Origin: Gottschalkia acidurici 9a
Lineage (GTDB): Bacteria > Bacillota > Clostridia > Tissierellales > Gottschalkiaceae
DNA length: 32,000 nt
Assembly (NCBI RefSeq): GCF_000299355.1
Contig: NC_018664.1
Coordinates: 2,991,993 to 3,023,992, forward strand
Direction: 5' to 3'
Under the pieces are notes generated by a model. The model worked only from the letters and a program-made list of their open reading frames with translations, ran no database searches and had not been told where the DNA came from. The translations under genes were made by a program, and so were the position numbers. Below, one piece after another: positions 1-12,012 of this stretch (its first letter is position 1; every line of letters begins with the position of its first letter).

Positions 1-1136
1 ATATTTACACATCTTAAGGTAAATACAACTGCCACCACATAAAGAATCATTTCTGTATTGTATCTAACAACATCTGATATATCAAATAAAGATACTATAG
101 ACTTTGCACTTAAGCCTATAATTATCGATAATATTACTCCAATCACAACAGATATGAAAACAAATTGATATCCATATCTTTTAGCTTTTTCTTCATCACC
201 TAAACCTATTTGCTTTCCTATCATAACTACTGAAGCGCTGGCTAAGCCAAGTATAAGTACTGTAAAGAAGTTTTGAATAGTATTATATATCTGAACAGAA
301 GCTATAGCTTGTGTCCCCATACGTCCGTATACTATTGAATATATTATTATTCCAGATCCCCAGCACAATTCGTTCAATATAACATGTGTAACTACACTAT
401 ATATTCTCCTTACAAAATCTCTATTAAAGCTTAGTAAGTCAGATAACTTTCCCAATAAAACTTTATTAGTTTTTAACATATAAATACTTAATACTATGGT
501 TTCAAACCCTCTAGCTATAATAGTTCCAATAGCAGCCCCTTTAACACCCATAGCCGGAAACCCTAGTTTACCAAATATAAGTATATAGTTTATAACTCCA
601 TTACATATTAAAGCTAAAAAACTTACTACCATTGGAGGTATAGTTCTCTCTACTGATCTTGATGCATTTGCTATACCAAATGTTATAGCTGTAAATGTGT
701 AACTTAGAGAAACTAATTTTAGGTATACACTTCCGTATTTTATAACTTCAGGATCCGTATTAAATATTGAAATAATCGTATTTGAAAATGTGAGTATTCC
801 AGTCATAAATATTAGTGAAATTATAATATTACTAATCAGGCAAACACCCAATACTTTTCTTATGTTTCTCTCTTCCTTCATTCCCCAGTACTGAGATATA
901 AACACTCCACATCCACTACTGAGTCCCACTATCATGATATTAAAAAGAAGAAATATCTGATTTGATATACCTACTGATGCTATCTGTGCTTCTCCTAATC
1001 TTCCAACCATAAGTGTATCTAACATATTTATAGAAGATGCTATAAGATTCTGTATAACTACCGGAACTGCTATATAAAATAGTGTTCTATAGTATTCTTT
1101 ATCCTTAATCATATTACTTATAAAGCCTCTAGTCAT
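1..1136 (-). CDS. MATE-family efflux transporter (partial; C-terminus lies beyond the window start)
   Basis: Minus-strand frame is open from ATG 1136-1134 (SD aagggggt about 10 nt upstream) to position 1. My translation is MTRGFISNMIKDKEYYRTLFYIAVPVVIQNLIASSINMLDTLMVGRLGEAQIASVGISNQIF..., a typical MATE/NorM N-terminus followed by many hydrophobic segments. It is missing from the ORF track only because it runs off the window. Confidence 0.8.
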   Translation of the reverse strand, partial: MTRGFISNMIKDKEYYRTLFYIAVPVVIQNLIASSINMLDTLMVGRLGEAQIASVGISNQIFLLFNIMIVGLSSGCGVFISQYWGMKEERNIRKVLGVCLISNIIISLIFMTGILTFSNTIISIFNTDPEVIKYGSVYLKLVSLSYTFTAITFGIANASRSVERTIPPMVVSFLALICNGVINYILIFGKLGFPAMGVKGAAIGTIIARGFETIVLSIYMLKTNKVLLGKLSDLLSFNRDFVRRIYSVVTHVILNELCWGSGIIIYSIVYGRMGTQAIASVQIYNTIQNFFTVLILGLASASVVMIGKQIGLGDEEKAKRYGYQFVFISVVIGVILSIIIGLSAKSIVSLFDISDVVRYNTEMILYVVAVVFTLRCVN

Positions 1137-1357
1137 TTTTATAATACCCCCTTTTCTAATCCTTAAATATCTTTCTTCCTTTCTAATTATACTATAATTT
1201 ATATCAATTTACATGAAATAAGATTTTATTAATAATCTTAAAACCCTTAATAATCAATAGCTATATGTTAAAAGAAATTTACCGAAATATAAAATATTTC
1301 ACAGCTATAATTAATATAAAAAACTCTTATCTCATATATTTATGATGAGGTGAGTTT

Positions 1358-2965
1358 ATGAAAATAGCTATATATTCTCGAAAATCGAGACTTACAGGAA
1401 AGGGTGAATCTATTCAAAACCAAATTGAATTATGTAAAGAGTATGCAAATAAGCATTTCGATGTAGATGAGTTTTTAATATATGAAGATGAAGGATTTTC
1501 TGGTGGCTCATCTGATAGACCCCAATATCAACTTATGATAAAAGATGCTAAAAAAAACGTTTTCAATATATTAATGTGCTATAGATTAGATAGAATAAGT
1601 AGAAATATATCTGATTTTTCTGATACTATAGCAACTTTGCAATCTAATAATATTTCATTTATTTCTCTTAGAGAACAATTTGATACTTCTACTCCTATGG
1701 GTAGAGCCATGATGTATATTGCTAGTGTATTTGCACAATTAGAAAGAGAAACTATTGCTGAACGTATAAAGGACAATATGCTAAGATTAGCCCGTTCTGG
1801 AAGATGGCTTGGTGGTAACTGCCCTACAGGATATACTTCAGAACCTATGGAGTACTATGATGATAATATGAATAAAAAGACCATGTATATGTTATCGCAA
1901 GTTCCTAAAGAACTGTTTATAGTCAAAAAAATATTTAGTAATTATCTAGAGCTTGGAAGCTTAAATCAAGTAGAAGTATGGTCTATTCAGAATAATATTA
2001 GAACTCCTAATAATAACTACTTTGATATAACCTCCATAAGAGGAATTCTCACTAATATGGTATATGTAAAGTCCGATAAAAAAATATATGATTATTGTAA
2101 AAAGTCAGATATGGATATAGCTTCAGATATATCAGAATTTGATGGGGTACATGGCCTCATGGTTTATAACAAAAATCTTATACGAAAAGGAAAAGCTAAT
2201 AAACTTCGTCCCACTTCCGAATGGATAGTAGCCGTTGGTAAGCATAAAGGTATTATTTCTTCTGATGACTTTATTAAGGTACAAAATAAGCTTAAGAAAA
2301 ATAAGCATAAAGCTCCTAAAAAAATCTCTAATAATATAGCTCTTCTTAGTTCATTATTGACTTGTCATAGTTGTAATAGTAAATTAAGAACTACTTATGG
2401 TAACAAAAGAAAAGATGGAACTAGACCACACTATTATAAATGCATATTTAAGGAAAAATCCAAAGGTGATGGATGTAATATAAAGAATTTAAATGGTAGT
2501 AAAACTGATAGTTTAATTTTAAATGAAGTTAAAAAGATTAGTGTAAACTATAATAGTTATTATAGTTATCTAAAAAGTCAGCGAAATGATATCTTATTTT
2601 TAAACTCCTTGTATAAAGATAATTCTAGCTCTATAGAAAAGGAAATAGATAAGTACAAGAGTATGATAAGAAAATTGACGATAACTTTAAGCGAAACTAC
2701 AGATTCCAGCTCTAGCAAGCACATAATAAATCAAATAGAAGATCTAGATAAAAAAATAGTAAAAGCTACTAATGACCTTAAGGTTTTAAATTCTAAAAGC
2801 TCTTTTTCTCCCTCTGATACATCCAGTATACAATTTCTAGAGACCCTTATTGATGACTTTAATTCTGCTATAGATAGTCTTAGTTTCAGTGAACAAAAAC
2901 ATTTATTGTCTTCAATTATAAGTAAAATTTTATGGAACGGGGAAAATTTAGAGGTTCATCTATAG
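1358..2965 (+). CDS. Large serine recombinase (phage/ICE/transposon integrase type)
   Basis: 535 aa. N-terminal resolvase catalytic domain (IAIYSRKSR...ESIQNQ, with Ser in the Y-x-R-x-S context; DEGFSG; YRLDRISRN; FAQLERETIAERIKD). This is followed by a recombinase domain, a Cys-rich zinc ribbon (CHSCNSKL...YYKC...GC) and a Ser/Lys-rich coiled-coil tail. SD gaggtgag precedes the ATG. Confidence 0.9.
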   Translation: MKIAIYSRKSRLTGKGESIQNQIELCKEYANKHFDVDEFLIYEDEGFSGGSSDRPQYQLMIKDAKKNVFNILMCYRLDRISRNISDFSDTIATLQSNNISFISLREQFDTSTPMGRAMMYIASVFAQLERETIAERIKDNMLRLARSGRWLGGNCPTGYTSEPMEYYDDNMNKKTMYMLSQVPKELFIVKKIFSNYLELGSLNQVEVWSIQNNIRTPNNNYFDITSIRGILTNMVYVKSDKKIYDYCKKSDMDIASDISEFDGVHGLMVYNKNLIRKGKANKLRPTSEWIVAVGKHKGIISSDDFIKVQNKLKKNKHKAPKKISNNIALLSSLLTCHSCNSKLRTTYGNKRKDGTRPHYYKCIFKEKSKGDGCNIKNLNGSKTDSLILNEVKKISVNYNSYYSYLKSQRNDILFLNSLYKDNSSSIEKEIDKYKSMIRKLTITLSETTDSSSSKHIINQIEDLDKKIVKATNDLKVLNSKSSFSPSDTSSIQFLETLIDDFNSAIDSLSFSEQKHLLSSIISKILWNGENLEVHL

Positions 2966-2986
2966 TTCGATTACTTTTATACCTAG

Positions 2987-3727
2987 ATTGACTCTGCTAT
3001 ACAGTGGGTTATAGAAACAAAAGATAAATATAAAACTAAGATATTAAATCTTTCTTTAGGTACACCTGCTAATAACCCGCTAAATTCAGACCCTTTAGTT
3101 AGAGCAGTAAATGAAGCTGTAAATGCTGGATTAACTGTTGTTGTTGCCGCAGGTAATAGTGGTCCTAACTCCCAAACTATACTTTCTCCTGGAAACAGTC
3201 CATCAGTTATAACAGTTGGTGCTGTAAATGATAGAAGTGCTAATGATAATAGTTATACAATAGCTCCATTCTCAAGTAGAGGGCCAACTAAAGAAGGACT
3301 AAGAAAGCCTGATGTAGTAGCTCCAGGGGTAAATATCAATTCATTATCTAGTGCGAAATTAGATCAGTATAAATCTTTGAGTGGAACATCTATGGCAACT
3401 CCTGTAGTATCAGGTTGTCTTGCAGTTCTACTTAGTCAGGATAGTAGCTTAGGTTCAAAGCAATTAAAGTCTCAAATTATAAACTCTTGTACTAGTCTTA
3501 ATGAAAGATCAGAGAATCAAGGTGCAGGTGTAGTTAACTTGAGTAAGCTATTTAAACATAATAGAAAGCCTGTCCTTACACCTAATAAATCACGCCCTTT
3601 ACCTGATAATGCACGTCCTTTACCTGATAATGCAGACAGTGGTGAAAGAATAAATCAACAAGATTTCATTTCTAGCGGATTAATTTTTATGCTATTCTTA
3701 ATTCTGCTTTTGATAAGAGTAATATAA
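2987..3727 (+). pseudogene. 5'-truncated subtilisin-like (peptidase S8) serine protease, C-terminal about 245 codons with a C-terminal TM anchor
   Basis: Open frame without any start codon, beginning right after TAG 2984-2986. Translation: IDSAIQWVIETKDKYKTKILNLSLGTPANN...VVVAAGNSGPN (oxyanion Asn)...APFSSRGPT...VVAPGVNI...LSGTSMATPVVSG (catalytic Ser)...hydrophobic tail GLIFMLFLILLLIRVI. The Asp (DTG) and His (HGTH) catalytic motifs are absent. The track ORF 3377..3727 is only the tail of this frame, read from an internal TTG. Confidence 0.8.
3591..3632 (+). repeat. Two tandem copies of a 21-bp unit inside the protease tail (RPLPDNA RPLPDNA)
   Basis: cacgccctttacctgataatg / cacgtcctttacctgataatg, one mismatch, in frame. 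Confidence 0.9.
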
Positions 3728-3737
3728 TAAAAGAAAA

Positions 3738-3790
3738 AGTCCAAAAAGAAATTTTAAGTTTAAATCATTTCTTTTGGACTTTTTTATTTT
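3738..3790. terminator. Bidirectional intrinsic terminator between convergent protease fragment and M23 peptidase genes
   Basis: agtccaaaaagaaat ... atttcttttggact stem (one bulge), followed by tttttatttttt on the plus strand and preceded by an A-run (a T-run on the minus strand). Confidence 0.7.
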
Positions 3791-3802
3791 TTCTCTTACT
3801 TT

Positions 3803-5215
3803 TTAATTTAAATAACTTTCAGGATTTTGAGCTACTCCATTTTTTCTAACTTCAAAGTGTAAGTGTGGACCCGTACTTCTTCCTGTATTACCTACTGCTG
3901 CTATAACATCACCTTTTGCAATCTTGTCACCTTTGTTAACATAAAGTTTACTACAATGAGCATATCTTGTCACATATCCATTCCCATGGTCTATTTCCAC
4001 CATATATCCATATCCGCCATTGTTGTATCCTGAATAAATTACAGTTCCACCATCTGATGCCGTTATAGGAGTTCCTATCCTTGCTCCTATATCTATTCCT
4101 TGATGACTTTTTCCCCATCTAGCTCCGAATCTAGATGTAATAGTGCCCCTTGCAGGTGTCATAAAGTGCCCAGTTGCAGCATGTATAGGAATTGCTTTAG
4201 TTCCTTTTACTATAACTTGAGCTATAGGTTGTGAAAGTATTGTTTCACTCAATATCTCTTTCGCTACTTCTATTCCATTATGCTTTTCTACTTTAGCAAC
4301 TACTTCAGTTTTTCCTGACACACCTTCTACTTTTATTTTTTGTTCATTTGTATATAGTGAATCATCAACTTCATATTGAGTATCAAATGCTACTTCCTCT
4401 GTATGTTTTTGTTCTTCATAAGTTGCTACAGTTATAAACGGTTTATGTATAGGTATATTTACCTCTTCACCTGGCTTTATATTTTTAGCATCTTTCCCAG
4501 GATTGGCTTCCTCTATGTCCTCCATATTTACATTATAATCTAGAGCCATAGTCCAATAATTTTCGTTCTCTTTTACTAAATGTTTAGTTTCTTCAATATT
4601 TCCTGTTTTAAGTGTTTCTAATGTGGTATCTATATCAGTAATAAGTGATACAGGAACTTTCTTTTTTACTAACTTTACATCTTCTAGTATTTTTACATCT
4701 TCTACTTTTACATTCTCATCATCTGATGCATGTGAGAATGGTTCTTTAAATTTTTCTATTGCTTGTTTTGCTACTTCTTCAGATTTAACATAAGCTGCAT
4801 CTTTATCGTTTACTTTTATAGCATAGCCAACTGCACTAAATGTTAAGCTATCATTTATATTCTTTTTGATAGTATTTTTTGAAGTAAGTTCTTCGTCTTT
4901 TACGTGAGTACTTACAAAAGCTATCTTTTCATTTATTTTTATTTTATTATCATACTTTTTAGATAAGTCTTTTTCTATTTCTTTTACTAAACTAAGAACT
5001 TCCTCTTTATTTCTAGCTATACCCACGTCTTTTTTACCAAATACAACTTTTACTGCTCTAGTAGCTATCTCATATCTTTTATATTGAACTAATCCAACTA
5101 TTGATATGACCGTAATTAATATCAGCACTATATTCATCTTATTATTTTTAAAATTATTTAAGTTTAATGTTTCCTTAAACTTTTTTATTTTCTTATTTAA
5201 AAGCGAATTACTCAT
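3803..5215 (-). CDS. Membrane-anchored M23 (LytM-type) peptidoglycan endopeptidase with LysM and G5-like domains
   Basis: 470 aa. N-terminal TM (IVLILITVISIVGLV). LysM-like segment (HLVKENENYWTMALDYNVNMEDIEEANPG...IKPGEEVNIP). G5-like segment (VAFDTQYEVDDSLYTNEQKIKVEGVSGK...VKGTK). C-terminal M23 motifs HQGIDI...GNTGRSTGPHLHFEV. SD aaggag is 8 nt from the ATG. Confidence 0.85.
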   Translation of the reverse strand: MSNSLLNKKIKKFKETLNLNNFKNNKMNIVLILITVISIVGLVQYKRYEIATRAVKVVFGKKDVGIARNKEEVLSLVKEIEKDLSKKYDNKIKINEKIAFVSTHVKDEELTSKNTIKKNINDSLTFSAVGYAIKVNDKDAAYVKSEEVAKQAIEKFKEPFSHASDDENVKVEDVKILEDVKLVKKKVPVSLITDIDTTLETLKTGNIEETKHLVKENENYWTMALDYNVNMEDIEEANPGKDAKNIKPGEEVNIPIHKPFITVATYEEQKHTEEVAFDTQYEVDDSLYTNEQKIKVEGVSGKTEVVAKVEKHNGIEVAKEILSETILSQPIAQVIVKGTKAIPIHAATGHFMTPARGTITSRFGARWGKSHQGIDIGARIGTPITASDGGTVIYSGYNNGGYGYMVEIDHGNGYVTRYAHCSKLYVNKGDKIAKGDVIAAVGNTGRSTGPHLHFEVRKNGVAQNPESYLN

Positions 5216-5552
5216 GGTTTCGCTCCTTTCTTTTTTGCCGTACGTTTAATTATAATTTAATTCTTTTGTAATATTTTTGTAACATATTTTAGAATCACGA
5301 ACCTATTATATCACATATTAATTCTAATTCAATCATTATTTATGCTTTTATATACTATTTTCCAATATATTTTTTTATATTATGTAGAATTGTTGCCATT
5401 ATTCTTATTTTTATTACATTTTTTATTCACTTAATCAACCTTTATATTCTACTTTAGAAATTATTTGCATCAAAAACAAATATTCAGTAAGGAAATATTT
5501 TACCCATATTATGATATAATATTATTTAGATTTAATAGGCAGGTGATTTTAT

Positions 5553-6650
5553 ATGTCTTTTTTTATTGAAACCACAGATATAGATTTGGGTGACACTTCT
5601 ATAGAAAATATATTTTTAAACGACTTCATGCCCATGGCAGACGGCACTTATGTAAAGGTTTATCTCCTTGGATTCAAGTATGCTAAGGACAATGATAGAA
5701 ATTTATCTATAAGTAATGAGGTTATATCAAGACACTTAAATATTCCTCTTTCTGATGTTTTAAGAGCCTGGGACTTTTGGCAGGATAAGGGCATTATTAA
5801 AAAACATATTAAAGAAGACAGCAACGATTATGACTATAAAGTAGAATTTTTAAATCTTAAACAACTCTACATAAAAAATAATTATAAGCCTGTCTCATCC
5901 TCTACCACTAATACTACTTCTACTACTTACACATGCTCTTCAGAGGACTTGGTTGAGGCTAATAGAATTCAAGGAATTAATGAAATGTTTAAATCTATAG
6001 ATTATATAGTAAGAAGACCTTTAGTTCCTAATGAAAAGAGAAAAATTTTAGAATGGCTCTATAATTACAATATGAGTACAGATGTAATAGTTAAGGCTTT
6101 TTTCTATAGTATAGAAAAGAGAGGAAAGAAAAATTTAAATTATATCGAAGGTATAATCAGAAACTGGTACGATATGGGCATTACTAATGTTGAAAGCTTA
6201 AATGATTATTTCAAAAACCAAGACGAAAAGTTTTATAGATATGATAGAATTATGAAATCTTTAGGTATTGGATTTAGACAACCTACTGAGAGTGAAATGA
6301 AAGTAATGAGTAAGTGGTTTGATGATTGGAATTTCAGTATGGATTTAGTTCTAAAAGCTTGTGAAAGTAGTAGTAAGACTGCAAACCCTAGTGTCAACTA
6401 TATAAACTCAATACTATCTTCATGGCACAGTAAAGATATTAAAACTATAGATGATATAGCAGTAAAAGATGTCAATCAAAGTAATAAAGCCACTAATCAA
6501 ACATATAAAAATAATTATGGAAGATCTAATCCTAGTAATGCATCAGTAAAAACTAAGTTTCATAACTTTGAACAGAGAACTTCTAAATATACTCCCGAAG
6601 AGCTGGAGCAAATGGTTCTTAGGAAAAAACATAGGAGTGATATACTATGA
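5553..6650 (+). CDS. DnaD-domain replication initiation/helicase co-loader protein (Bacillus DnaB/DnaD family, not the helicase)
   Basis: 365 aa with two DnaD-like C-terminal repeats (NLNYIEGIIRNWYDMGITNVESLNDYF and SVNYINSILSSWHSKDIKTIDDI). Its stop overlaps the start of the downstream loader gene (ATGA at 6647-6650), as in the B. subtilis dnaB-dnaI operon. Confidence 0.75.
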   Translation: MSFFIETTDIDLGDTSIENIFLNDFMPMADGTYVKVYLLGFKYAKDNDRNLSISNEVISRHLNIPLSDVLRAWDFWQDKGIIKKHIKEDSNDYDYKVEFLNLKQLYIKNNYKPVSSSTTNTTSTTYTCSSEDLVEANRIQGINEMFKSIDYIVRRPLVPNEKRKILEWLYNYNMSTDVIVKAFFYSIEKRGKKNLNYIEGIIRNWYDMGITNVESLNDYFKNQDEKFYRYDRIMKSLGIGFRQPTESEMKVMSKWFDDWNFSMDLVLKACESSSKTANPSVNYINSILSSWHSKDIKTIDDIAVKDVNQSNKATNQTYKNNYGRSNPSNASVKTKFHNFEQRTSKYTPEELEQMVLRKKHRSDIL

Positions 6651-7636
6651 ACAAATCATTCATTAGAGAAGTTTTAAGAGACTATGAAAAACGTAGAGAT
6701 GATTCAATATATAGTCAAAAGATAAGACAAGAAGAAGTATATTCAAAGATACCGAGAATAAAGGAAATTGATATGGAAATATCAAAAACAGGATTTCTTA
6801 TATCTAAAGCTATTCTTCAAGATCCAGAATCATATGAGGAAAAAGTTAACGAGATAAAAGAAACAATGGATAGTTTGAAAAAAGAAAAAGCAATCCTTAT
6901 GACTGAAAATAACATACCTCTTGAGTATCTTGATATAAACTATAACTGCAATAAGTGCAAAGATACTGGTTTTTTAGAAAATGGTAATAGATGCAATTGT
7001 TTAAGACAAGTGCTCATAGAAAGATCTTATAGAATGTCTAACCTTGGAAATCTTCTTCAAAAAGAAAACTTTAAAACTTTTAATATAGATATATTTTCCA
7101 CAGAACCTTTTGAAGATGAGAAACTTACTCCTCGGGAAAATATATTAGATATTCTACAAATATGTGAGGGATTCTGCTTTAACTTTGATGAGAAAAATGA
7201 AGAAAATCTTTTACTTTATGGGACAACCGGCTTAGGTAAGACATTTATGTGCAACTGTATAGCTAAAAATCTTTTAGACAGAGGAAAAATAGTTATATAT
7301 CAAACTGCGTTTAATATTCTAGACATAATTAGTAAACACAAATTTCAACCAAGCTATAGTGTAAGTATAGACGAATCTGAGTATAACCTATTGTTTCAAT
7401 CCGATCTTTTAATAATAGATGACTTAGGTACAGAGCTTACGAATAGTTTTACAAATACAGAGATATTTAATATAGTTAATTCTAGGCTTATAAAAGGTCA
7501 GAAAACTATTATATCTACAAATCTAGCTCCTATGGAAATAGCTAATGTTTATACAGATAGAATATTTTCTAGATTATTTAGTCAATTTACACCTCTAAAA
7601 TTCTTTGGTCCTGACTTAAGATGGGAAAGAAAATAA
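6647..7636 (+). CDS. dnaI: DnaI/DnaC-type AAA+ replicative helicase loader
   Basis: 329 aa. N-terminal Cys cluster (CNKCKDTGF...RCNC), Walker A GTTGLGKTF, Walker B LLIIDDLG, IstB/DnaC-like C-terminus. Translationally coupled to the DnaD-domain gene. Confidence 0.8.
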   Translation: MNKSFIREVLRDYEKRRDDSIYSQKIRQEEVYSKIPRIKEIDMEISKTGFLISKAILQDPESYEEKVNEIKETMDSLKKEKAILMTENNIPLEYLDINYNCNKCKDTGFLENGNRCNCLRQVLIERSYRMSNLGNLLQKENFKTFNIDIFSTEPFEDEKLTPRENILDILQICEGFCFNFDEKNEENLLLYGTTGLGKTFMCNCIAKNLLDRGKIVIYQTAFNILDIISKHKFQPSYSVSIDESEYNLLFQSDLLIIDDLGTELTNSFTNTEIFNIVNSRLIKGQKTIISTNLAPMEIANVYTDRIFSRLFSQFTPLKFFGPDLRWERK

Positions 7637-8909: not shown

Positions 8910-8985
8910 TGGAGCTGGTGAGAGGACTTGAACCCCCAACCTACTGATTACAAGTCAGTTGCTCTACCGATTGAGCCACACCAGC
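8910..8985 (-). tRNA. tRNA-Thr (UGU)
   Basis: 76-nt cloverleaf. Sense GCTGGTGTGGCTCAATCGGTAGAGC...ACTGA-CTTGTAA-TCAGT...GGTTCAAGTCC...CACCAGCTCCA. CCA is encoded. Confidence 0.9.
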
Positions 8986-8995
8986 AACTTACTTA

Positions 8996-9072
8996 TGGCG
9001 ACCTGGAAGGGACTCGAACCCTCGACCTCCAGCGTGACAGGCTGGCATTCTAACCAACTGAACTACCAGGCC
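8996..9072 (-). tRNA. tRNA-Asp (GUC)
   Basis: 77 nt. Sense GGCCTGGTAGTTCAGTTGGTTAGAAT..CCAGC-CTGTCAC-GCTGG..GGTTCGAGTCC..CCA. Confidence 0.9.
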
Positions 9073-9094
9073 ATATTGTTTTTTACTTATTTTA

Positions 9095-9170
9095 TGGTGG
9101 GCGTGACAGGGCTCGAACCTGTGACCCCCTGCTTGTAAGGCAGGTGCTCTCCCAGCTGAGCTACACGCCC
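9095..9170 (-). tRNA. tRNA-Val (UAC)
   Basis: 76 nt. Sense GGGCGTGTAGCTCAGCTGGGAGAGC..CCTGC-CTTACAA-GCAGG..GGTTCGAGCCC..CCA. Confidence 0.9.
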
Positions 9171-9208
9171 ATAACTACATTATGGTATCTGGGAAAATAT
9201 TATTTGTT

Positions 9209-9283
9209 TGGTGACCCTACCGGGATTCGAACCCGGGTTACCGCCGTGAAAGGGCGGTGTCTTAACCGCTTGACCATAGGGCC
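9209..9283 (-). tRNA. tRNA-Glu (UUC)
   Basis: 75 nt. Sense GGCCCTATGGTCAAGCGGTTAAGAC..CCGCC-CTTTCAC-GGCGG..GGTTCGAATCCC..CCA. Confidence 0.9.
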
Positions 9284-9291
9284 TTTTAAGT

Positions 9292-9367
9292 TGGTGACCC
9301 ATCCGCGACTCGAACGCGGGACACCCTGATTAAAAGTCAGGTGCTCTACCGACTGAGCTAATAGGTC
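9292..9367 (-). tRNA. tRNA-Lys (UUU)
   Basis: 76 nt. Sense GACCTATTAGCTCAGTCGGTAGAGC..CCTGA-CTTTTAA-TCAGG..GTTCGAGTCGCGG..CCA. Confidence 0.9.
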
Positions 9368-9597: not shown

Positions 9598-10191
9598 TTA
9601 TGTGAATAAAAAATCTTTATAGTCATTTTTTCCTAATCTCATCTTATAATAGTATCCATATAAGGTATCTTTTTTAATAATAAAGTAATTCTTTGTATCT
9701 TCTAGTTGTATATCATTTAAATTAATGTCATTATTTTTCATAGTATATTCTTTAATTATCTTAAATCCACATTTTTCATAACATTTTATAGCTCTTATAT
9801 TATGTTTTGCCACATCTAGATACATAGTTCTCATATTCATACTATCAAAGTAGTATTTTAGTAATACTTTTAAAGCCTCTGTCCCATACCCTTTATTTAT
9901 ATACCTTGGATCAAAAGCTATACCTAGATTAGCCGTCTTCAAAAGTTTTCTAATATCCTTTATGCTTATAAAGCCAATAGTTTTTCCATCTTCATTTAGT
10001 ACGCCAAAACTTTCACAATCTTTTTGAGATGTTTTTATATCAAACCATCTTTTTATCTCGAAATCTTCTAATTCCGGAAAGTTGTAGTCATCGAAAAGTG
10101 GATCTTCATGATTCCCCCAACTTCTCATTTCATATACGTTCACTAAGTTTAAAGACTCTAAGTATACTTTCTTTCCTTTTATAGTAACCAT
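9598..10191 (-). CDS. GNAT-family N-acetyltransferase (RimJ/RimL-like)
   Basis: 197 aa. Acetyl-CoA binding motif region (IAFDPRYINKGYGTEALKVLLKYYF) and a conserved C-terminal block (NIRAIKCYEKCGFK). SD gagggagg upstream. Confidence 0.8.
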   Translation of the reverse strand: MVTIKGKKVYLESLNLVNVYEMRSWGNHEDPLFDDYNFPELEDFEIKRWFDIKTSQKDCESFGVLNEDGKTIGFISIKDIRKLLKTANLGIAFDPRYINKGYGTEALKVLLKYYFDSMNMRTMYLDVAKHNIRAIKCYEKCGFKIIKEYTMKNNDINLNDIQLEDTKNYFIIKKDTLYGYYYKMRLGKNDYKDFLFT

Positions 10192-10205
10192 TATAATCCT
10201 CCCTC

Positions 10206-10240
10206 AAATACTAGTTACATTTGAACCTGAACTAGTATTT
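10206..10240 (-). other. Hairpin immediately upstream of the GNAT RBS, sharing its stem sequence with the dnaB terminator
   Basis: aaatactagtt-N13-aactagtattt. Function unknown. Confidence 0.3.
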
Positions 10241-10242
10241 TG

Positions 10243-10297
10243 CAAAAAAATATTGTACTAGTTATCTATATCATCTATTTATAACTAACTAGTACAA
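10243..10297 (-). terminator. Intrinsic terminator after dnaB
   Basis: Minus-sense ttgtactagtta-N21-taactagtacaa stem followed by tattttttt. Confidence 0.7.
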
Positions 10298-10299
10298 CA

Positions 10300-11637
10300 C
10301 TATTGATTCTCTGCATACCTTTCCATGTTCAAGAATTTAGTATATTCACCCATAAATACTAAGTCTACAGTTCCAATAGGACCGTTACGATGTTTTGCAA
10401 TTATAACCTCTCCTATATTTTTCTTTTCTGAATCTGGATGATAGTACTCATCTCTATATAAAAACACAACTATATCCGCATCTTGCTCTATTGCTCCAGA
10501 CTCACGTAGATCTGATAGAATTGGTCTATGATCCGATCTTAACTCTGGCGCACGTGATAGCTGTGATAAAGCCACAACAGGGCAGTCCATTTCTTTAGCG
10601 AGACCTTTTAGTCCCCTAGATATATTAGATATCTCTTGTTGTCTATTTTCATTTCTTCCGTCTCCAGACATCAGCTGTAAATAGTCAATCATTACTAGGT
10701 CTAATCCTTTTTCAATTTTAAGTTTTCTACACTTTGCTTTAAGTTCCATTAAGGTTATTCCCGGGGTATCATCTATATATATTCCTGCTTGTGATAATGG
10801 CCCCATAGCTCTGACTAACTTTGGCCAATCATCCTCATTTAACTTCCCGTTTATAATTTTTTGTAACTCAACATGAGATTCCGCACTTAACATACGTTGA
10901 ACTAGCTGATCCTTGGACATCTCTAGGCTAAATATTGCAACTGATCCTTTTCCTTTTAACGCAGCATTTAATGCAACATTCAACGCAAATGCTGTTTTTC
11001 CCATTGCAGGTCTTGCAGCTACTAGTATTAAGTCTGATCTTTGAAGTCCTGATGTCTTATTATCTAAATCTATAAATCCTGTTGTAAGTCCTGTTATTCC
11101 CCCAGAACTTTGAGACAACTGCTCTATCTTGGTAAAGCTATCTAGAAGTATTGTCTTTATAGACTCTAGTCCTTCTTGATTTCGCTTTTGAGTTATATCA
11201 AATATCCTTTTCTCTGCTAATTCCATTATATTTTCTATATTTTCTTCATCTTCATAACCTTTTGCAATTATGTCATTAGAGGCCTTTATAAGATTTCTTA
11301 ATATAGACTTTTCCTCTACTATCTCACAATAGTATTTCATATTTGCCGTAGTAGATACACCTTCTGATAAATTAGCTAAATACATTATTCCACCTATAGA
11401 GTCTAATGTATTACGTTTCTTTAACTCTTCAGATAGTGTTATAAGATCTACAGGCTCATCTCTTGCAAATATGTCTGTTACAGCTTCATATATTTCCTTA
11501 TGAGCTTCTTTGTAAAAATCTCCAGGTCTTAATATTTCCGTACCTGTAACTATAGCTTCCCTATCTAGAATCATAGAACCTAAAACTGATTGTTCTGCTT
11601 CTATATTATGAGGAGGTATTTTACCTAAATTCTCCAT
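10300..11637 (-). CDS. dnaB: Replicative DNA helicase (DnaB family; called DnaC in Bacillus nomenclature)
   Basis: 445 aa. PPHNIEAEQSVLGSMI N-terminus, Walker A ARPAMGKTAFALN, Walker B-region MIDYLQLM, and SQLSR...DLRESGAIEQDAD motifs. Confidence 0.95.
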   Translation of the reverse strand: MENLGKIPPHNIEAEQSVLGSMILDREAIVTGTEILRPGDFYKEAHKEIYEAVTDIFARDEPVDLITLSEELKKRNTLDSIGGIMYLANLSEGVSTTANMKYYCEIVEEKSILRNLIKASNDIIAKGYEDEENIENIMELAEKRIFDITQKRNQEGLESIKTILLDSFTKIEQLSQSSGGITGLTTGFIDLDNKTSGLQRSDLILVAARPAMGKTAFALNVALNAALKGKGSVAIFSLEMSKDQLVQRMLSAESHVELQKIINGKLNEDDWPKLVRAMGPLSQAGIYIDDTPGITLMELKAKCRKLKIEKGLDLVMIDYLQLMSGDGRNENRQQEISNISRGLKGLAKEMDCPVVALSQLSRAPELRSDHRPILSDLRESGAIEQDADIVVFLYRDEYYHPDSEKKNIGEVIIAKHRNGPIGTVDLVFMGEYTKFLNMERYAENQ

Positions 11638-12012
11638 AATTTAATCTCCTATCATCAAGTAGTATAGAGTAAAAACATTGTCTAATAAATATCATACTTA
11701 GATATATTTTTTCCATTTAGTAACTTATTAGACAAGCAATATGTGAATGAGTTAAGACTCAATTTGCTATATATCTAGATCAAATGTATAACAGATCAAA
11801 CATATATTTTGATTCTTTACCTAAATACAAGATACTAAATGCATATATTAGCAATAGTATCTTGTATTTTTACAATGGCTATCCCTATATTAGGGATAGC
11901 TTGAAAGCTAAAAATTTCACCTTATAGATTAATTTTAAGGTATTTATACTTAGTATATTATTTAAAATAAAGTTTAAATAACCAAAGTATTCTATATAAT
12001 TTAAGCTTTATT

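What the first reader, a model, noticed from the sequence alone, without database searches (positions are those of the whole stretch)
1358..3727. Large serine recombinase butted against a start-less half of a subtilisin-like protease gene: candidate gene-splitting integrative element
Seen directly:
- The 535-aa serine recombinase stops at TAG 2963-2965.
- From 2987 an open frame with no start codon reads straight into the middle of an S8 peptidase: IDSAIQWVIE..LNLSLG, oxyanion AAGNSGP, catalytic LSGTSMATP, and a C-terminal TM anchor.
- The Asp (DTG) and His (HGTH) catalytic motifs that must precede this point are missing.
- Both ORFs are on the plus strand and in the same frame (position mod 3 = 2), separated only by TAG, 6 codons, TAG. 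The shared frame has a one-in-three chance expectation and may be coincidence.
- The left neighbour of the recombinase is a divergently oriented MATE gene. The missing protease 5' half is therefore not adjacent.

Inference: the DNA containing the recombinase is an insertion whose right junction (attR-type) lies within about 2960-2990, overlapping the recombinase 3' end. Its body extends left beyond the window.

Established precedent: large serine recombinases sitting at the edge of elements that split host genes and restore them by excision. Examples are SpoIVCA/skin in sigK, SprA/SPbeta in spsM, and A118/phi10403S in Listeria comK ('active lysogeny').

I know of no described case where the interrupted gene is a membrane-anchored subtilase. 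If excision is regulated, this would be a new DNA-rearrangement switch controlling an extracellular or spore-associated protease.
Basis: partly seen in the sequence, partly recalled or inferred. Interest (0 to 1): 0.75.

Follow-up and report, generated by a model that had tools for sequence, protein, structure and literature searches.

The report
Mini recombinase element splitting a protease gene
A small DNA cassette (a site-specific recombinase, an efflux pump and probably a tiny helper gene) sits inside a subtilisin-like protease gene of a spore-forming Clostridia-type bacterium. It has been inherited there across a whole group of related species, so the protease can only be made after the cassette cuts itself out, as in the known sporulation gene switches.

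Summary
A complete 535-aa large serine recombinase (LSR, 1358-2965) ends 27 bp before a 9-bp crossover core (TCTGCTATA, 2993-3001). A start-less C-terminal half of an S8 protease follows, to 3727.

The missing 5' half is not in the window. In six independently assembled relatives, including Gottschalkia purinilytica, it lies just beyond the same MATE gene. The layout is: S8 N-half | 54-61-aa ORF | (variable cargo) | MATE | LSR | S8 C-half.

These elements are 3.3-7.6 kb and are not prophages. In-silico excision at the shared core gives intact 428-456-aa proteases.

Both halves and all element genes are under purifying selection (dN/dS 0.1-0.3, dS saturated). Element and host divergences are congruent (r = 0.98), and no intact allele exists in this clade. 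This points to an old, vertically inherited split gene that must be rejoined to function.

In Brassicibacter the same site holds a large element. There, a natural intact allele differs from the joined halves at 1 of 435 residues.

An unrelated LSR lineage splits the same gene at the catalytic His motif in other Tissierellales.

Excision and its timing (mother cell during sporulation) are inferred, not shown. This is a new member of the skin/gin class with a new target gene.

The parts
3..1136 (-). MATE-family efflux transporter gene. This is cargo of the intervening element. The window holds the N-terminal 378 aa; about 76 codons lie beyond the left edge.
   Evidence: Pfam MatE E 3.9e-48. NCBIfam TIGR00797 scores 201 bits, above its cutoff. 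An orthologous 454-461-aa MATE lies between the small ORF and the LSR in L006/L007/L008/L009/L092/L094. Identity is 63-66% and dN/dS 0.17-0.23.
1137..1357 (.). Divergent intergenic region between MATE and the LSR. The RBS GAGGTGA at 1347-1353 is preceded by TCTCATATATTTA.
   Evidence: Sequence. A similar CATATA(A/T)TTA lies just upstream of the RBS in the G. purinilytica element. The sigma-70 scan is not above chance: 14 sites against 15 expected. Which promoter acts here is unresolved.
1358..2965 (+). Large serine recombinase (integrase/excisionase catalytic subunit), 535 aa, at the right edge of the element.
   Evidence: Pfam PF00239, PF07508 and PF13408. PHROG 95 'integrase', E 8e-105. The catalytic motif YSRKS with Ser10 is invariant across 5 orthologues. 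Identity to LSRs at the same S8 site is 60-66%, with dN/dS 0.12-0.24.
2968..3025 (+). attR. It comprises the element-derived P arm (2968-2992, cGATTACTTTTATACCTAGATTGAC), the crossover core TCTGCTATA (2993-3001), and the host-derived B' arm (3002-3025, CAGTGGGTTATAGAAACAAAAGAT).
   Evidence: The core TCTGCWAT(A) is shared by attL and attR in L006, L008, L009 and L092. Reconstructed attP has imperfect inverted arms TGATyACTTyT about 52 bp apart. The natural attB of the intact orthologue L098 reads ...TCTGCTATACAATGGGTTATAGAAACTAAAGAT, matching the window's B' arm at 22 of 24 positions.
2987..3727 (+). Start-less 3' half of the S8 (AprX-like) protease gene. It encodes the oxyanion Asn (AAGNSGP), the catalytic Ser (GTSMATP), a low-complexity linker and a C-terminal tail anchor. 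Host-derived codons begin at the core.
   Evidence: Identity to the C-halves of relatives is 63-68%, with dN/dS 0.14-0.26.
3803..7636 (.). Host flank that fixes orthology of the locus: LysM-G5-M23 peptidase (3803-5215, minus strand), DnaD/DnaB_2-like (5553-6650, plus strand) and DnaI-like (6647-7636, plus strand).
   Evidence: Pfam. The same gene order lies to the right of the S8 gene in L003, L005, L006, L092 and L098.

Best explanation
The window holds the right two-thirds of a small, non-phage 'gene-intervening element' inside the coding sequence of a conserved, tail-anchored S8 (AprX-like) serine protease gene. The host is a Gottschalkia-like spore-forming bacterium (Tissierellales).

Element core:
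- An LSR at the right edge, with its stop codon 27 bp from the crossover core.
- A MATE efflux gene.
- In every relative, a 54-61-aa ORF at the left edge. This is the best candidate for the recombination directionality factor (RDF).

In the integrated state neither protease half can give an active enzyme. The Asp and His residues are on the N-half; the Asn, the Ser and the membrane anchor are on the start-less C-half.

The LSR, with the small protein, recombines attL x attR at the 9-bp core TCTGCTATA. This releases a 3-8-kb circle and restores an uninterrupted protease gene of about 430-455 codons, read from its own promoter.

The element is fixed and co-diverges with its hosts, so excision must occur in cells that leave no descendants. 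The most likely place is the mother cell during sporulation, as for skin/sigK, SPbeta/spsM and gin/gerE.

Shown: the anatomy, the att sites, in-frame restoration in relatives, purifying selection, vertical inheritance, and a natural intact allele for the Brassicibacter element.

Inferred: that excision happens, that the small ORF is the RDF, and the sporulation/mother-cell timing.
For: 1. Same architecture in six independent assemblies: S8 N-half | small ORF | (cargo) | MATE | LSR | S8 C-half. The elements measure 3335, 3370, 4585 and 7605 bp core to core.
2. attL and attR share the core TCTGCWAT(A), and attP reconstructs an imperfect inverted repeat typical of LSR sites. The natural attB in the intact orthologue L098, at the same locus, contains the same core and arm.
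3. In-silico excision gives open S8 reading frames of 428-456 aa with D, H, N and S in four lineages.
4. The Brassicibacter halves, once joined, differ at 1 of 435 residues from a natural intact protein.
5. dN/dS is 0.11-0.24 for the N-half and 0.14-0.33 for the C-half, with dS about 1 or more. This matches WalR, M23, MATE and the LSR.
6. Pairwise identities of host and element genes are congruent: r = 0.98 for S8N against MATE and 0.92 for S8N against the small ORF. This indicates vertical co-divergence.
7. No intact allele was found in this clade. Exact look-ups of the joined proteins failed. A junction-spanning profile search found no full-coverage hit above 61% identity. All members of 8 clusters are fragment-length. 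Twenty distinct 90%-identity clusters of N-halves end at SDIVSA(I/M).
8. The small ORF is always retained at attL despite cargo turnover, with dN/dS 0.15-0.46. Homologues accompany the nearest LSR relatives (48-51% identity), which target other genes (L002, L012, L086).
9. A conserved box TAG(T/G)ACAA(A/G)CCC, followed by a CATA-type -10 element, lies upstream of the small ORF whatever its upstream neighbour.
10. Gottschalkia is a spore-former (bioRxiv 10.1101/2022.02.25.481979). LSR-plus-RDF elements that rejoin sporulation genes are established (PMC5595907, PMC4191935, PMC5025042).
11. An unrelated LSR (28.6% identity) splits the same gene at NGHGT|HV in other Tissierellales.
Against: - The N-half, the small ORF and attL of this particular genome lie outside the window. 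The source genome was not found in any collection.
- No excised circle or repaired junction was detected for the mini-elements.
- The protease has no demonstrated role in sporulation. Its promoter motifs are only suggestive and not conserved in all lineages.
- The small ORF matches no known RDF or any Pfam, NCBIfam or PHROG family.
- Both split sites lie in the most conserved segments of S8 genes (a helix after the His region, and the His motif). Target choice could therefore reflect sequence conservation rather than the gene's function.
- dS is saturated, so dN/dS values are approximate.
Confidence: 0.62

Rival explanations
1. The element is an excision-competent integrative element that acts as a non-developmental switch. 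Excision would be stochastic or stress-induced in vegetative cells, in the style of active lysogeny or phase variation. The protease would be made in an element-free subpopulation, and the element would be kept by re-integration or by selection for the MATE pump.
For: - At the same site in Brassicibacter the insertion is polymorphic: a near-identical intact allele exists.
- The yin element in yabG shows growth-phase-dependent mixed populations (PMC10747680).
- The cargo (MATE pump, sugar ABC transporter, polysaccharide deacetylase) would benefit vegetative cells.
Against: - A 3.3-kb circle with no replication or transfer genes would be lost from dividing cells.
- No intact allele was seen in 20 or more clusters of the mini-element clade.
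- Strict co-divergence with the host fits germ-line fixation better than repeated loss and regain.
Confidence: 0.2
2. The arrangement is a dead relic. The element inserted once, can no longer excise, and the protease gene is permanently inactivated.
For: - No excision product was found in databases.
- One population variant (L006) carries a premature stop that removes the last 26 aa of the LSR.
- S. faouarense has the split with no LSR within 10 kb of either junction.
Against: - Both halves keep open frames, catalytic residues and dN/dS of 0.1-0.3 over saturated synonymous divergence in at least 5 lineages.
- The LSR and the small ORF are themselves under purifying selection, with an invariant catalytic Ser.
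- The att arms are conserved.
- Pseudogenes would have decayed over this much divergence.
Confidence: 0.08
3. The element is an ordinary prophage or large integrative element, as the first reader's precedents (skin, SPbeta, A118) suggest. The MATE gene would lie at the edge of a much larger body to the left of the window.
For: - The nearest LSR in phage databases is an integrase at the end of a prophage (L002, 49% identity; also CP51).
- At the same S8 site, Brassicibacter carries prophage-like genes next to its LSR, with about 90 genes between the halves.
- The S. faouarense halves are 74 kb apart.
Against: All six relatives that share the MATE-LSR pair with the window have the N-half 3.3-7.6 kb from the C-half and carry no phage genes. 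The window's MATE and LSR are orthologous to theirs at 60-66% identity.
Confidence: 0.08

Closest known systems
gin element in gerE of Bacillus cereus ATCC 10987 (GirC LSR + GirX RDF; Abe et al. 2017, PMC5595907)
   Same: Both are non-phage gene-intervening elements. Both have an LSR, a 9-bp core shared by the att sites with an imperfect inverted repeat in the element's site, and need (there) or probably need (here) a small accessory factor. Both split a coding sequence that is rejoined in frame.
   Different: - gin targets a transcription factor gene, carries three recombinase genes, is nearly identical between strains (recent transfer), and its excision in sporulation was shown experimentally.
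- The element here targets an S8 protease. It has one LSR plus a MATE pump, has co-diverged with its hosts to about 60% protein identity, and its excision is untested.
skin elements in sigK (SpoIVCA; B. subtilis, C. difficile skinCd with RDF CD1234; PMC5025042; survey in bioRxiv 10.1101/2022.02.25.481979)
   Same: [quoted passage not shown] Apart from the recombinase, gene content varies between lineages. The logic is the same: the germ line keeps the element and the terminal cell excises it.
   Different: - skin elements are 14-48-kb degenerate prophages in a sigma-factor gene.
- The elements here are 3.3-7.6 kb with transporter cargo, sit in a protease gene, and occur in class Tissierellia. 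The LSR is only a family-level relative.
SPbeta in spsM (SprA + SprB; PMC4191935, PMC5499854) and yin in yabG of C. botulinum (PMC10747680)
   Same: LSR-mediated precise excision restores a split gene. yabG shows that a protease gene can be the target. The large Brassicibacter element at this S8 site, with its polymorphic intact allele, resembles these active or strain-specific elements.
   Different: SPbeta and yin are prophage(-like) and strain-specific. The window's element is minimal and fixed across a clade. The yabG product is a cysteine protease with a known role in sporulation, whereas this S8 protease has none documented.
Tn4451/Tn5397-type clostridial transposons (TnpX/TndX LSRs) and SCC cassettes (CcrAB/CcrC)
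   Same: These are small, non-phage LSR-driven cassettes carrying resistance or efflux-type cargo. They excise as circles.
   Different: They insert at many sites or at a single non-coding-type site (orfX), carry mobilisation functions, and spread horizontally. Here one intragenic site is occupied with vertical inheritance. NCBIfam Ccr models score far below their cutoffs: 135 bits against a cutoff of 900.

Membership tests
Large serine recombinase (serine integrase) | N-terminal resolvase catalytic domain with a nucleophilic Ser | tested here: met
   PF00239, E 3.6e-37, residues 3-150. The motif YSRKS with Ser10 is invariant in 5 orthologues.
Large serine recombinase (serine integrase) | C-terminal Recombinase domain plus a zinc-ribbon domain | tested here: met
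   PF07508 (E 4.5e-18) and PF13408 (E 1.2e-8). PHROG 95 'integrase', E 8e-105.
Large serine recombinase (serine integrase) | Short (about 40-50 bp) att sites, attP with imperfect inverted arms around a central crossover | tested here: met
   Reconstructed attP of L006, L008 and L092 has TGATyACTTyT arms about 52 bp apart around TCTGCTATA. The window carries the P arm, the core and the B' arm at 2968-3025.
Sporulation-type gene-intervening element (skin / SPbeta / vfbin / vrin / gin / yin class) | The element interrupts a coding sequence, and the two halves lie on one strand and join in frame on precise excision | tested here: met
   Met in relatives: four in-silico joins give 428-456-aa ORFs. 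The Brassicibacter join equals a natural intact protein except at 1 residue. In the window itself only the attR side is visible.
Sporulation-type gene-intervening element (skin / SPbeta / vfbin / vrin / gin / yin class) | [quoted passage not shown] | tested here: met
   The LSR stop codon lies 27 bp from the core.
Sporulation-type gene-intervening element (skin / SPbeta / vfbin / vrin / gin / yin class) | A cognate recombination directionality factor is present | tested here: inconclusive
   A conserved 54-61-aa ORF at attL co-occurs with related LSRs elsewhere. It has no family match and is not present in the window.
Sporulation-type gene-intervening element (skin / SPbeta / vfbin / vrin / gin / yin class) | The host forms endospores | tested here: inconclusive
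   The closest named hosts are Gottschalkia species, listed as spore-formers in bioRxiv 10.1101/2022.02.25.481979. The window's own organism is unidentified, and no sporulation gene lies in the window.
Sporulation-type gene-intervening element (skin / SPbeta / vfbin / vrin / gin / yin class) | The interrupted gene is a mother-cell-expressed sporulation gene | tested here: inconclusive
   The only evidence is a conserved AC-N17-CATA(A/C)ATT motif upstream of the gene in 3 lineages, and it is not conserved in the L006/L008/L092 group. That this motif resembles mother-cell sigma promoters rests on my memory of the sigmaE/sigmaK consensus.
Sporulation-type gene-intervening element (skin / SPbeta / vfbin / vrin / gin / yin class) | Excision is observed during sporulation | not testable with these tools
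   This needs cultures. Database searches for repaired or circular junctions were negative.
Prophage | Phage structural, lysis or replication genes within the element | tested here: not met
   Orthologous elements contain only the small ORF, MATE and the LSR, with or without a deacetylase or an ABC transporter.
Subtilase (peptidase S8) | Asp-His-Ser catalytic triad in one polypeptide | tested here: not met
   The window fragment has only Asn and Ser (profile positions 101-288). The triad is complete only after the in-silico join in relatives.
SCC cassette recombinases (CcrA/B/C) and XisF | Score above the NCBIfam equivalog cutoff | tested here: not met
   CcrB scores 135 bits against a cutoff of 900. 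XisF scores 112 bits against 375.

The most novel reading that the evidence does not exclude
A minimal LSR-plus-RDF cassette of about 3.3 kb has been domesticated and vertically inherited across a family-level clade of Tissierellales (Gottschalkia and relatives). It acts as a developmental DNA switch for a tail-anchored S8 protease. An unrelated LSR lineage has independently taken up residence in the same gene at the catalytic His codons. On this reading the protease is a previously unrecognised terminal-cell (mother-cell) sporulation function, and the gene is a convergent hotspot for programmed rearrangement.
Probability: 0.45. Interest if true: 0.72.

Novelty: new member of a known kind. Interest (0 to 1): 0.58.

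Why it matters
All characterised gene-intervening elements of spore-formers lie in Bacilli or Clostridia proper. Most are prophage remnants, or strain-specific insertions, in known sporulation genes.

This case differs in several ways:
- It adds a new host class (Tissierellia).
- It adds a new target, an AprX-like S8 protease with no assigned role.
- The elements are only 3.3-7.6 kb, against the 14-48 kb cited for skin; they hold little more than the recombinase, a candidate 55-aa directionality factor and a pump.
- It gives unusually clear comparative evidence that such a split can be stably inherited through deep divergence while the split gene stays under selection.

Practical points:
- It gives a compact new LSR/att/candidate-RDF set for recombination tools.
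- It flags the protease as a likely late-sporulation factor.
- Both halves are currently annotated as separate 'S8 family peptidases' in public genomes, and this explains why.
- The idea can be tested directly in the cultured type strains G. acidurici 9a and G. purinilytica.

Tried and rejected
- **Source genome.** Exact look-up of the LSR found nothing. A scan of GTDB genomes returned only an irrelevant Niastella hit. The window could not be extended to the left.
- **Metagenome scan with an LSR alignment.** It returned 80 loci with LSRs of 51% identity or less. None lies next to an S8 fragment, so it gave no extra same-site elements.
- **Phage DNA search.** Only the LSR catalytic domain matched C. 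perfringens phage CP51, at 76% identity. The region is not a known phage.
- **Evidence of excision in public data.**
  - Exact look-ups of four in-silico-joined proteins found them absent.
  - An attP-junction pattern was absent from IMG/VR.
  - A junction-spanning profile search gave no full-coverage hit above 61% identity.
  - No cluster member of intact length exists in the mini-element clade.
- **Family assignment of the small ORF.** Pfam-style libraries, NCBIfam and PHROGs gave nothing significant.
- **Promoters and terminators.** The sigma-70 promoter scan was at chance level, and no intrinsic terminator was found in 1000-3900. Sigma-factor assignment from motifs was judged too weak to rely on.
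- **Shared frame of the LSR and the S8 half.** Rejected as coincidence, because it is not conserved in relatives.
- **Prophage reading for this element.** Rejected, because orthologous elements carry 3 to 7 genes and none is a phage gene.
Full report
**Observation**

- ORF 1358-2965 (+) encodes a 535-aa protein ending at TAG 2963-2965. It has the three domains of a large serine recombinase (LSR): Resolvase E 3.6e-37, Recombinase 4.5e-18 and Zn_ribbon_recom 1.2e-8. It also matches PHROG 95 'integrase'.
- Six codons and a second TAG follow. From 2987 an open frame with no start codon then runs to 3727.
- That frame matches Pfam Peptidase_S8 only over profile positions 101-288 of 288. It contains AAGNSGP, GTSMATP and a hydrophobic C-terminus.
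- The first in-frame start codon is TTG at 3377.
- tblastn with an intact orthologue finds only residues 199-392 anywhere in the 32 kb, so the N-half is not in the window.
- The left neighbour (3-1136, minus strand) is a MATE transporter truncated by the window edge.
- To the right lie a LysM-G5-M23 peptidase, DnaD-like and DnaI-like genes, then replicative helicase, gdpP, rpsF-ssb and an rRNA operon. This is an origin-proximal chromosomal region.

**Relatives reveal the whole element**

The source genome is in none of the collections. A search with the C-half returned many S8 proteins in two length classes. One class is about 425 aa and intact (several called 'AprX' by their sources). The other is about 220-295 aa and truncated, and many of these begin at the same point...I(A/V/D)SAIxWVI.

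Contexts of the closest truncated hits (L006/L007, L008) show this order: walR-walK-yycHI | S8 N-half (205-207 aa, with DTG and HGTH) | 54-56-aa ORF (minus) | MATE (minus) | LSR (plus) | S8 C-half | M23 peptidase | dnaD | dnaI.

The same core is found elsewhere with extra cargo between the small ORF and MATE:
- Gottschalkia purinilytica (L009/L010) has an added polysaccharide deacetylase.
- Two further metagenome lineages (L092, L093/L094) have an added four-gene sugar ABC transporter.

The N-half is also annotated as a separate 204-aa 'peptidase S8/S53' in G. acidurici 9a.

The MATE gene in the window is therefore cargo of the element, not host DNA. The element is 3.3-7.6 kb (3335, 3370, 4585 and 7605 bp core to core) and carries no phage genes.

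By analogy, the window's attL and N-half should lie about 0.5-5 kb to the left of position 1.

**Attachment sites and restoration**
- attL and attR of each relative share the core TCTGCWAT(A).
- Joining the element-side arms gives an attP with imperfect inverted arms (TGATyACTTyT) about 52 bp apart. This is what LSR sites look like (general description in PMC5595907).
- The window has the P arm (2968-2992), the core (2993-3001) and the host B' arm (3002-3025).
- An intact 430-aa orthologue at the same locus in another lineage (L098: walK-walR ... S8-M23 ... dnaD) carries the natural attB...GATATAGTT-TCTGCTATA-CAATGGGTTATAGAAAC... It matches the window's B' arm at 22 of 24 positions.
- Cutting at the core in silico yields uninterrupted S8 ORFs of 456, 428, 447 and 454 aa with the full D/H/N/S set.
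- In Brassicibacter mesophilus the same site is occupied by an LSR (60% identical to the window's) that sits beside prophage-like genes. The two annotated halves, once joined, differ at a single residue out of 435 from a natural intact protein found in a JGI metagenome. This is direct evidence that the split is a precise insertion into a functional frame.

**Age and selection**
- Between lineages dS is about 1 or more, which is saturated. dN/dS values:

| Gene | dN/dS |
|---|---|
| S8 N-half | 0.11-0.24 |
| S8 C-half | 0.14-0.33 |
| MATE | 0.11-0.32 |
| LSR | 0.12-0.28 |
| Small ORF | 0.15-0.46 |

- These ranges resemble the host genes walR and M23.
- Pairwise identities of host and element genes give the same relationships: (L006, L092), (L008, L094), and G. 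purinilytica as the most distant. The correlations are r = 0.98 for S8N against MATE and 0.92 for S8N against the small ORF.
- Twenty distinct 90%-identity clusters of N-halves end at SDIVSA(I/M).
- No intact allele of this clade was found:
  - exact look-ups of the joined proteins failed;
  - a junction-spanning profile search found nothing above 61% identity at full coverage;
  - every member of eight clusters is fragment-length.
- The simplest reading is that the element entered an ancestor of this clade, became fixed, and has co-diverged with its hosts. Meanwhile the split gene has stayed under purifying selection. That requires the gene to be rejoined regularly, in cells that do not pass on their DNA.

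**Candidate directionality factor**

The 54-61-aa ORF is always the last gene before attL, whatever lies upstream of it. An HMM built from it also detects homologues close to the three nearest LSR relatives (48-51% identity), which target other genes:
- a prophage splitting an ABC-ATPase gene (L002);
- L012, where it is the divergent neighbour of the LSR;
- L086.

The small ORF thus travels with this LSR clade as a unit, as RDFs do. It has no Pfam, NCBIfam or PHROG match.

A conserved box TAG(T/G)ACAA(A/G)CCC, followed by a CATA-type -10 element, lies upstream of it in four lineages. From memory this resembles a SpoIIID box or a mother-cell promoter, but that is a lead only.

A conserved AC-N17-CATA(A/C)ATT lies upstream of the S8 gene in three lineages. 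It is absent from the others.

**Wider pattern**

Database fragments of this S8 family fall into two split sites. Besides SDIVSA|IxWVI there is NGHGT|HV(A/S)G, inside the catalytic His motif, with about 35 N-fragment and about 33 C-fragment clusters.

One example of this second site (L097) has an LSR abutting the N-half. It is only 28.6% identical to the window's LSR. Its own 57-aa ORF and a polysaccharide-synthesis cluster accompany it. Two unrelated LSR lineages therefore occupy the same gene.

At site 1 the occupant also varies:
- mini-elements in the Gottschalkia-like clade, including the window;
- a span of about 90 genes, judged from the accession gap, in Brassicibacter;
- a 74-kb interval with different att arms in Sporosalibacterium faouarense.

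**Mechanism and rivals**

The best-supported model is a skin/gin-type programmed rearrangement. The LSR plus the small protein recombine attL x attR, excise a small circle and restore the protease gene, most probably in the sporulating mother cell. Gottschalkia is a spore-former, and the precedents are PMC5595907, PMC4191935 and PMC5025042.

Excision, the RDF role and the timing are inferences. The rivals are:
- A non-developmental excision switch. This is possible, but hard to reconcile with a replication-less 3.3-kb circle and with fixation.
- A dead relic. This is contradicted by selection on both halves, on the LSR and on the small ORF.
- A large prophage. This is contradicted by the orthologous elements.

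**Novelty**

Searches of the literature found the following elements:
- skin
- SPbeta/spsM
- vfbin
- vrin
- gin/gerE
- yin/yabG

They found nothing on an S8 or aprX split, and nothing on such elements in Gottschalkia or Tissierellia. I therefore class this as a new member of a known kind. It has unusual features: minimal size, transporter cargo, deep vertical inheritance, and convergent occupation of the same gene.

Noticed in passing
L097:10001-12294 (site-2 example); protein clusters P0138-P0199, P0017-P0120: The same S8 gene family is split at a second site, inside the catalytic His motif. N-fragments end ...NGHGTQVPCTV and C-fragments start MVHGTHVAG. About 35 N-fragment and 33 C-fragment clusters fall here. 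In L097 an LSR only 28.6% identical to the window's abuts the N-half, followed by a 57-aa ORF, an HTH gene and a MurJ/Wzy/glycosyltransferase cluster.
   Followed up: partly
L005:10001-10696 and L011:10001-10624 (Sporosalibacterium faouarense, one 126.8-kb contig): The halves, split at site 1, lie about 74 kb apart. The att arms are different (a perfect inverted CATTGCATTTTA). The interval holds a GerA operon, two-component systems and defence-like genes. No related LSR lies within 10 kb of either junction.
   Followed up: partly
L003:5835-9988 (Brassicibacter mesophilus): The site-1 LSR (540 aa) sits beside a second, tyrosine-integrase prophage module (integrase, M78 peptidase, HTH repressors, AntA, RecT). 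Accession numbers put the two S8 halves about 90 genes apart, which suggests a composite or tandem element.
   Followed up: partly
L006:9945-9953 versus L007 at the same position: Two otherwise identical ENA contigs differ by one base (TTA to TAA). The change truncates the LSR from 535 to 509 aa in L006. It is either a natural loss-of-function variant or a sequencing error.
   Followed up: no
L002:4349-4525 and 9929-11825 (IMG/VR contig): A prophage whose LSR is 49% identical to the window's splits an ABC-transporter ATPase gene instead. It encodes a 58-aa homologue of the small ORF in its early region.
   Followed up: partly
Clostridiisalibacter paucivorans proteins P0145 / P0087 (WP_284071439.1, WP_284071440.1): The N- and C-fragments, split at site 1, have consecutive RefSeq protein accessions and lie on the same 28.5-kb contig. 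They may be adjacent, which would mean a very small element or a scar. The context was not examined.
   Followed up: no
window:24014-25533 and 8913-9367: There are dense tRNA arrays. About 15 tRNAs lie interleaved with two 5S rRNA copies downstream of the 23S gene, and a separate five-tRNA cluster lies after the diaminopimelate dehydrogenase gene.
   Followed up: no
window:21892-22989 (-): A 365-aa ORF has no Pfam match. It lies next to a DUF5711/PQQ-like beta-propeller protein.
   Followed up: no
L006:6912-6975, L009:9143-9325, L092:5738-5790, L094:2388-2436: A conserved non-coding box TAG(T/G)ACAA(A/G)CCC, followed 10-13 nt later by a CATA motif, lies directly upstream of the small ORF regardless of which gene precedes it. 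It is likely a dedicated regulatory site.
   Followed up: partly
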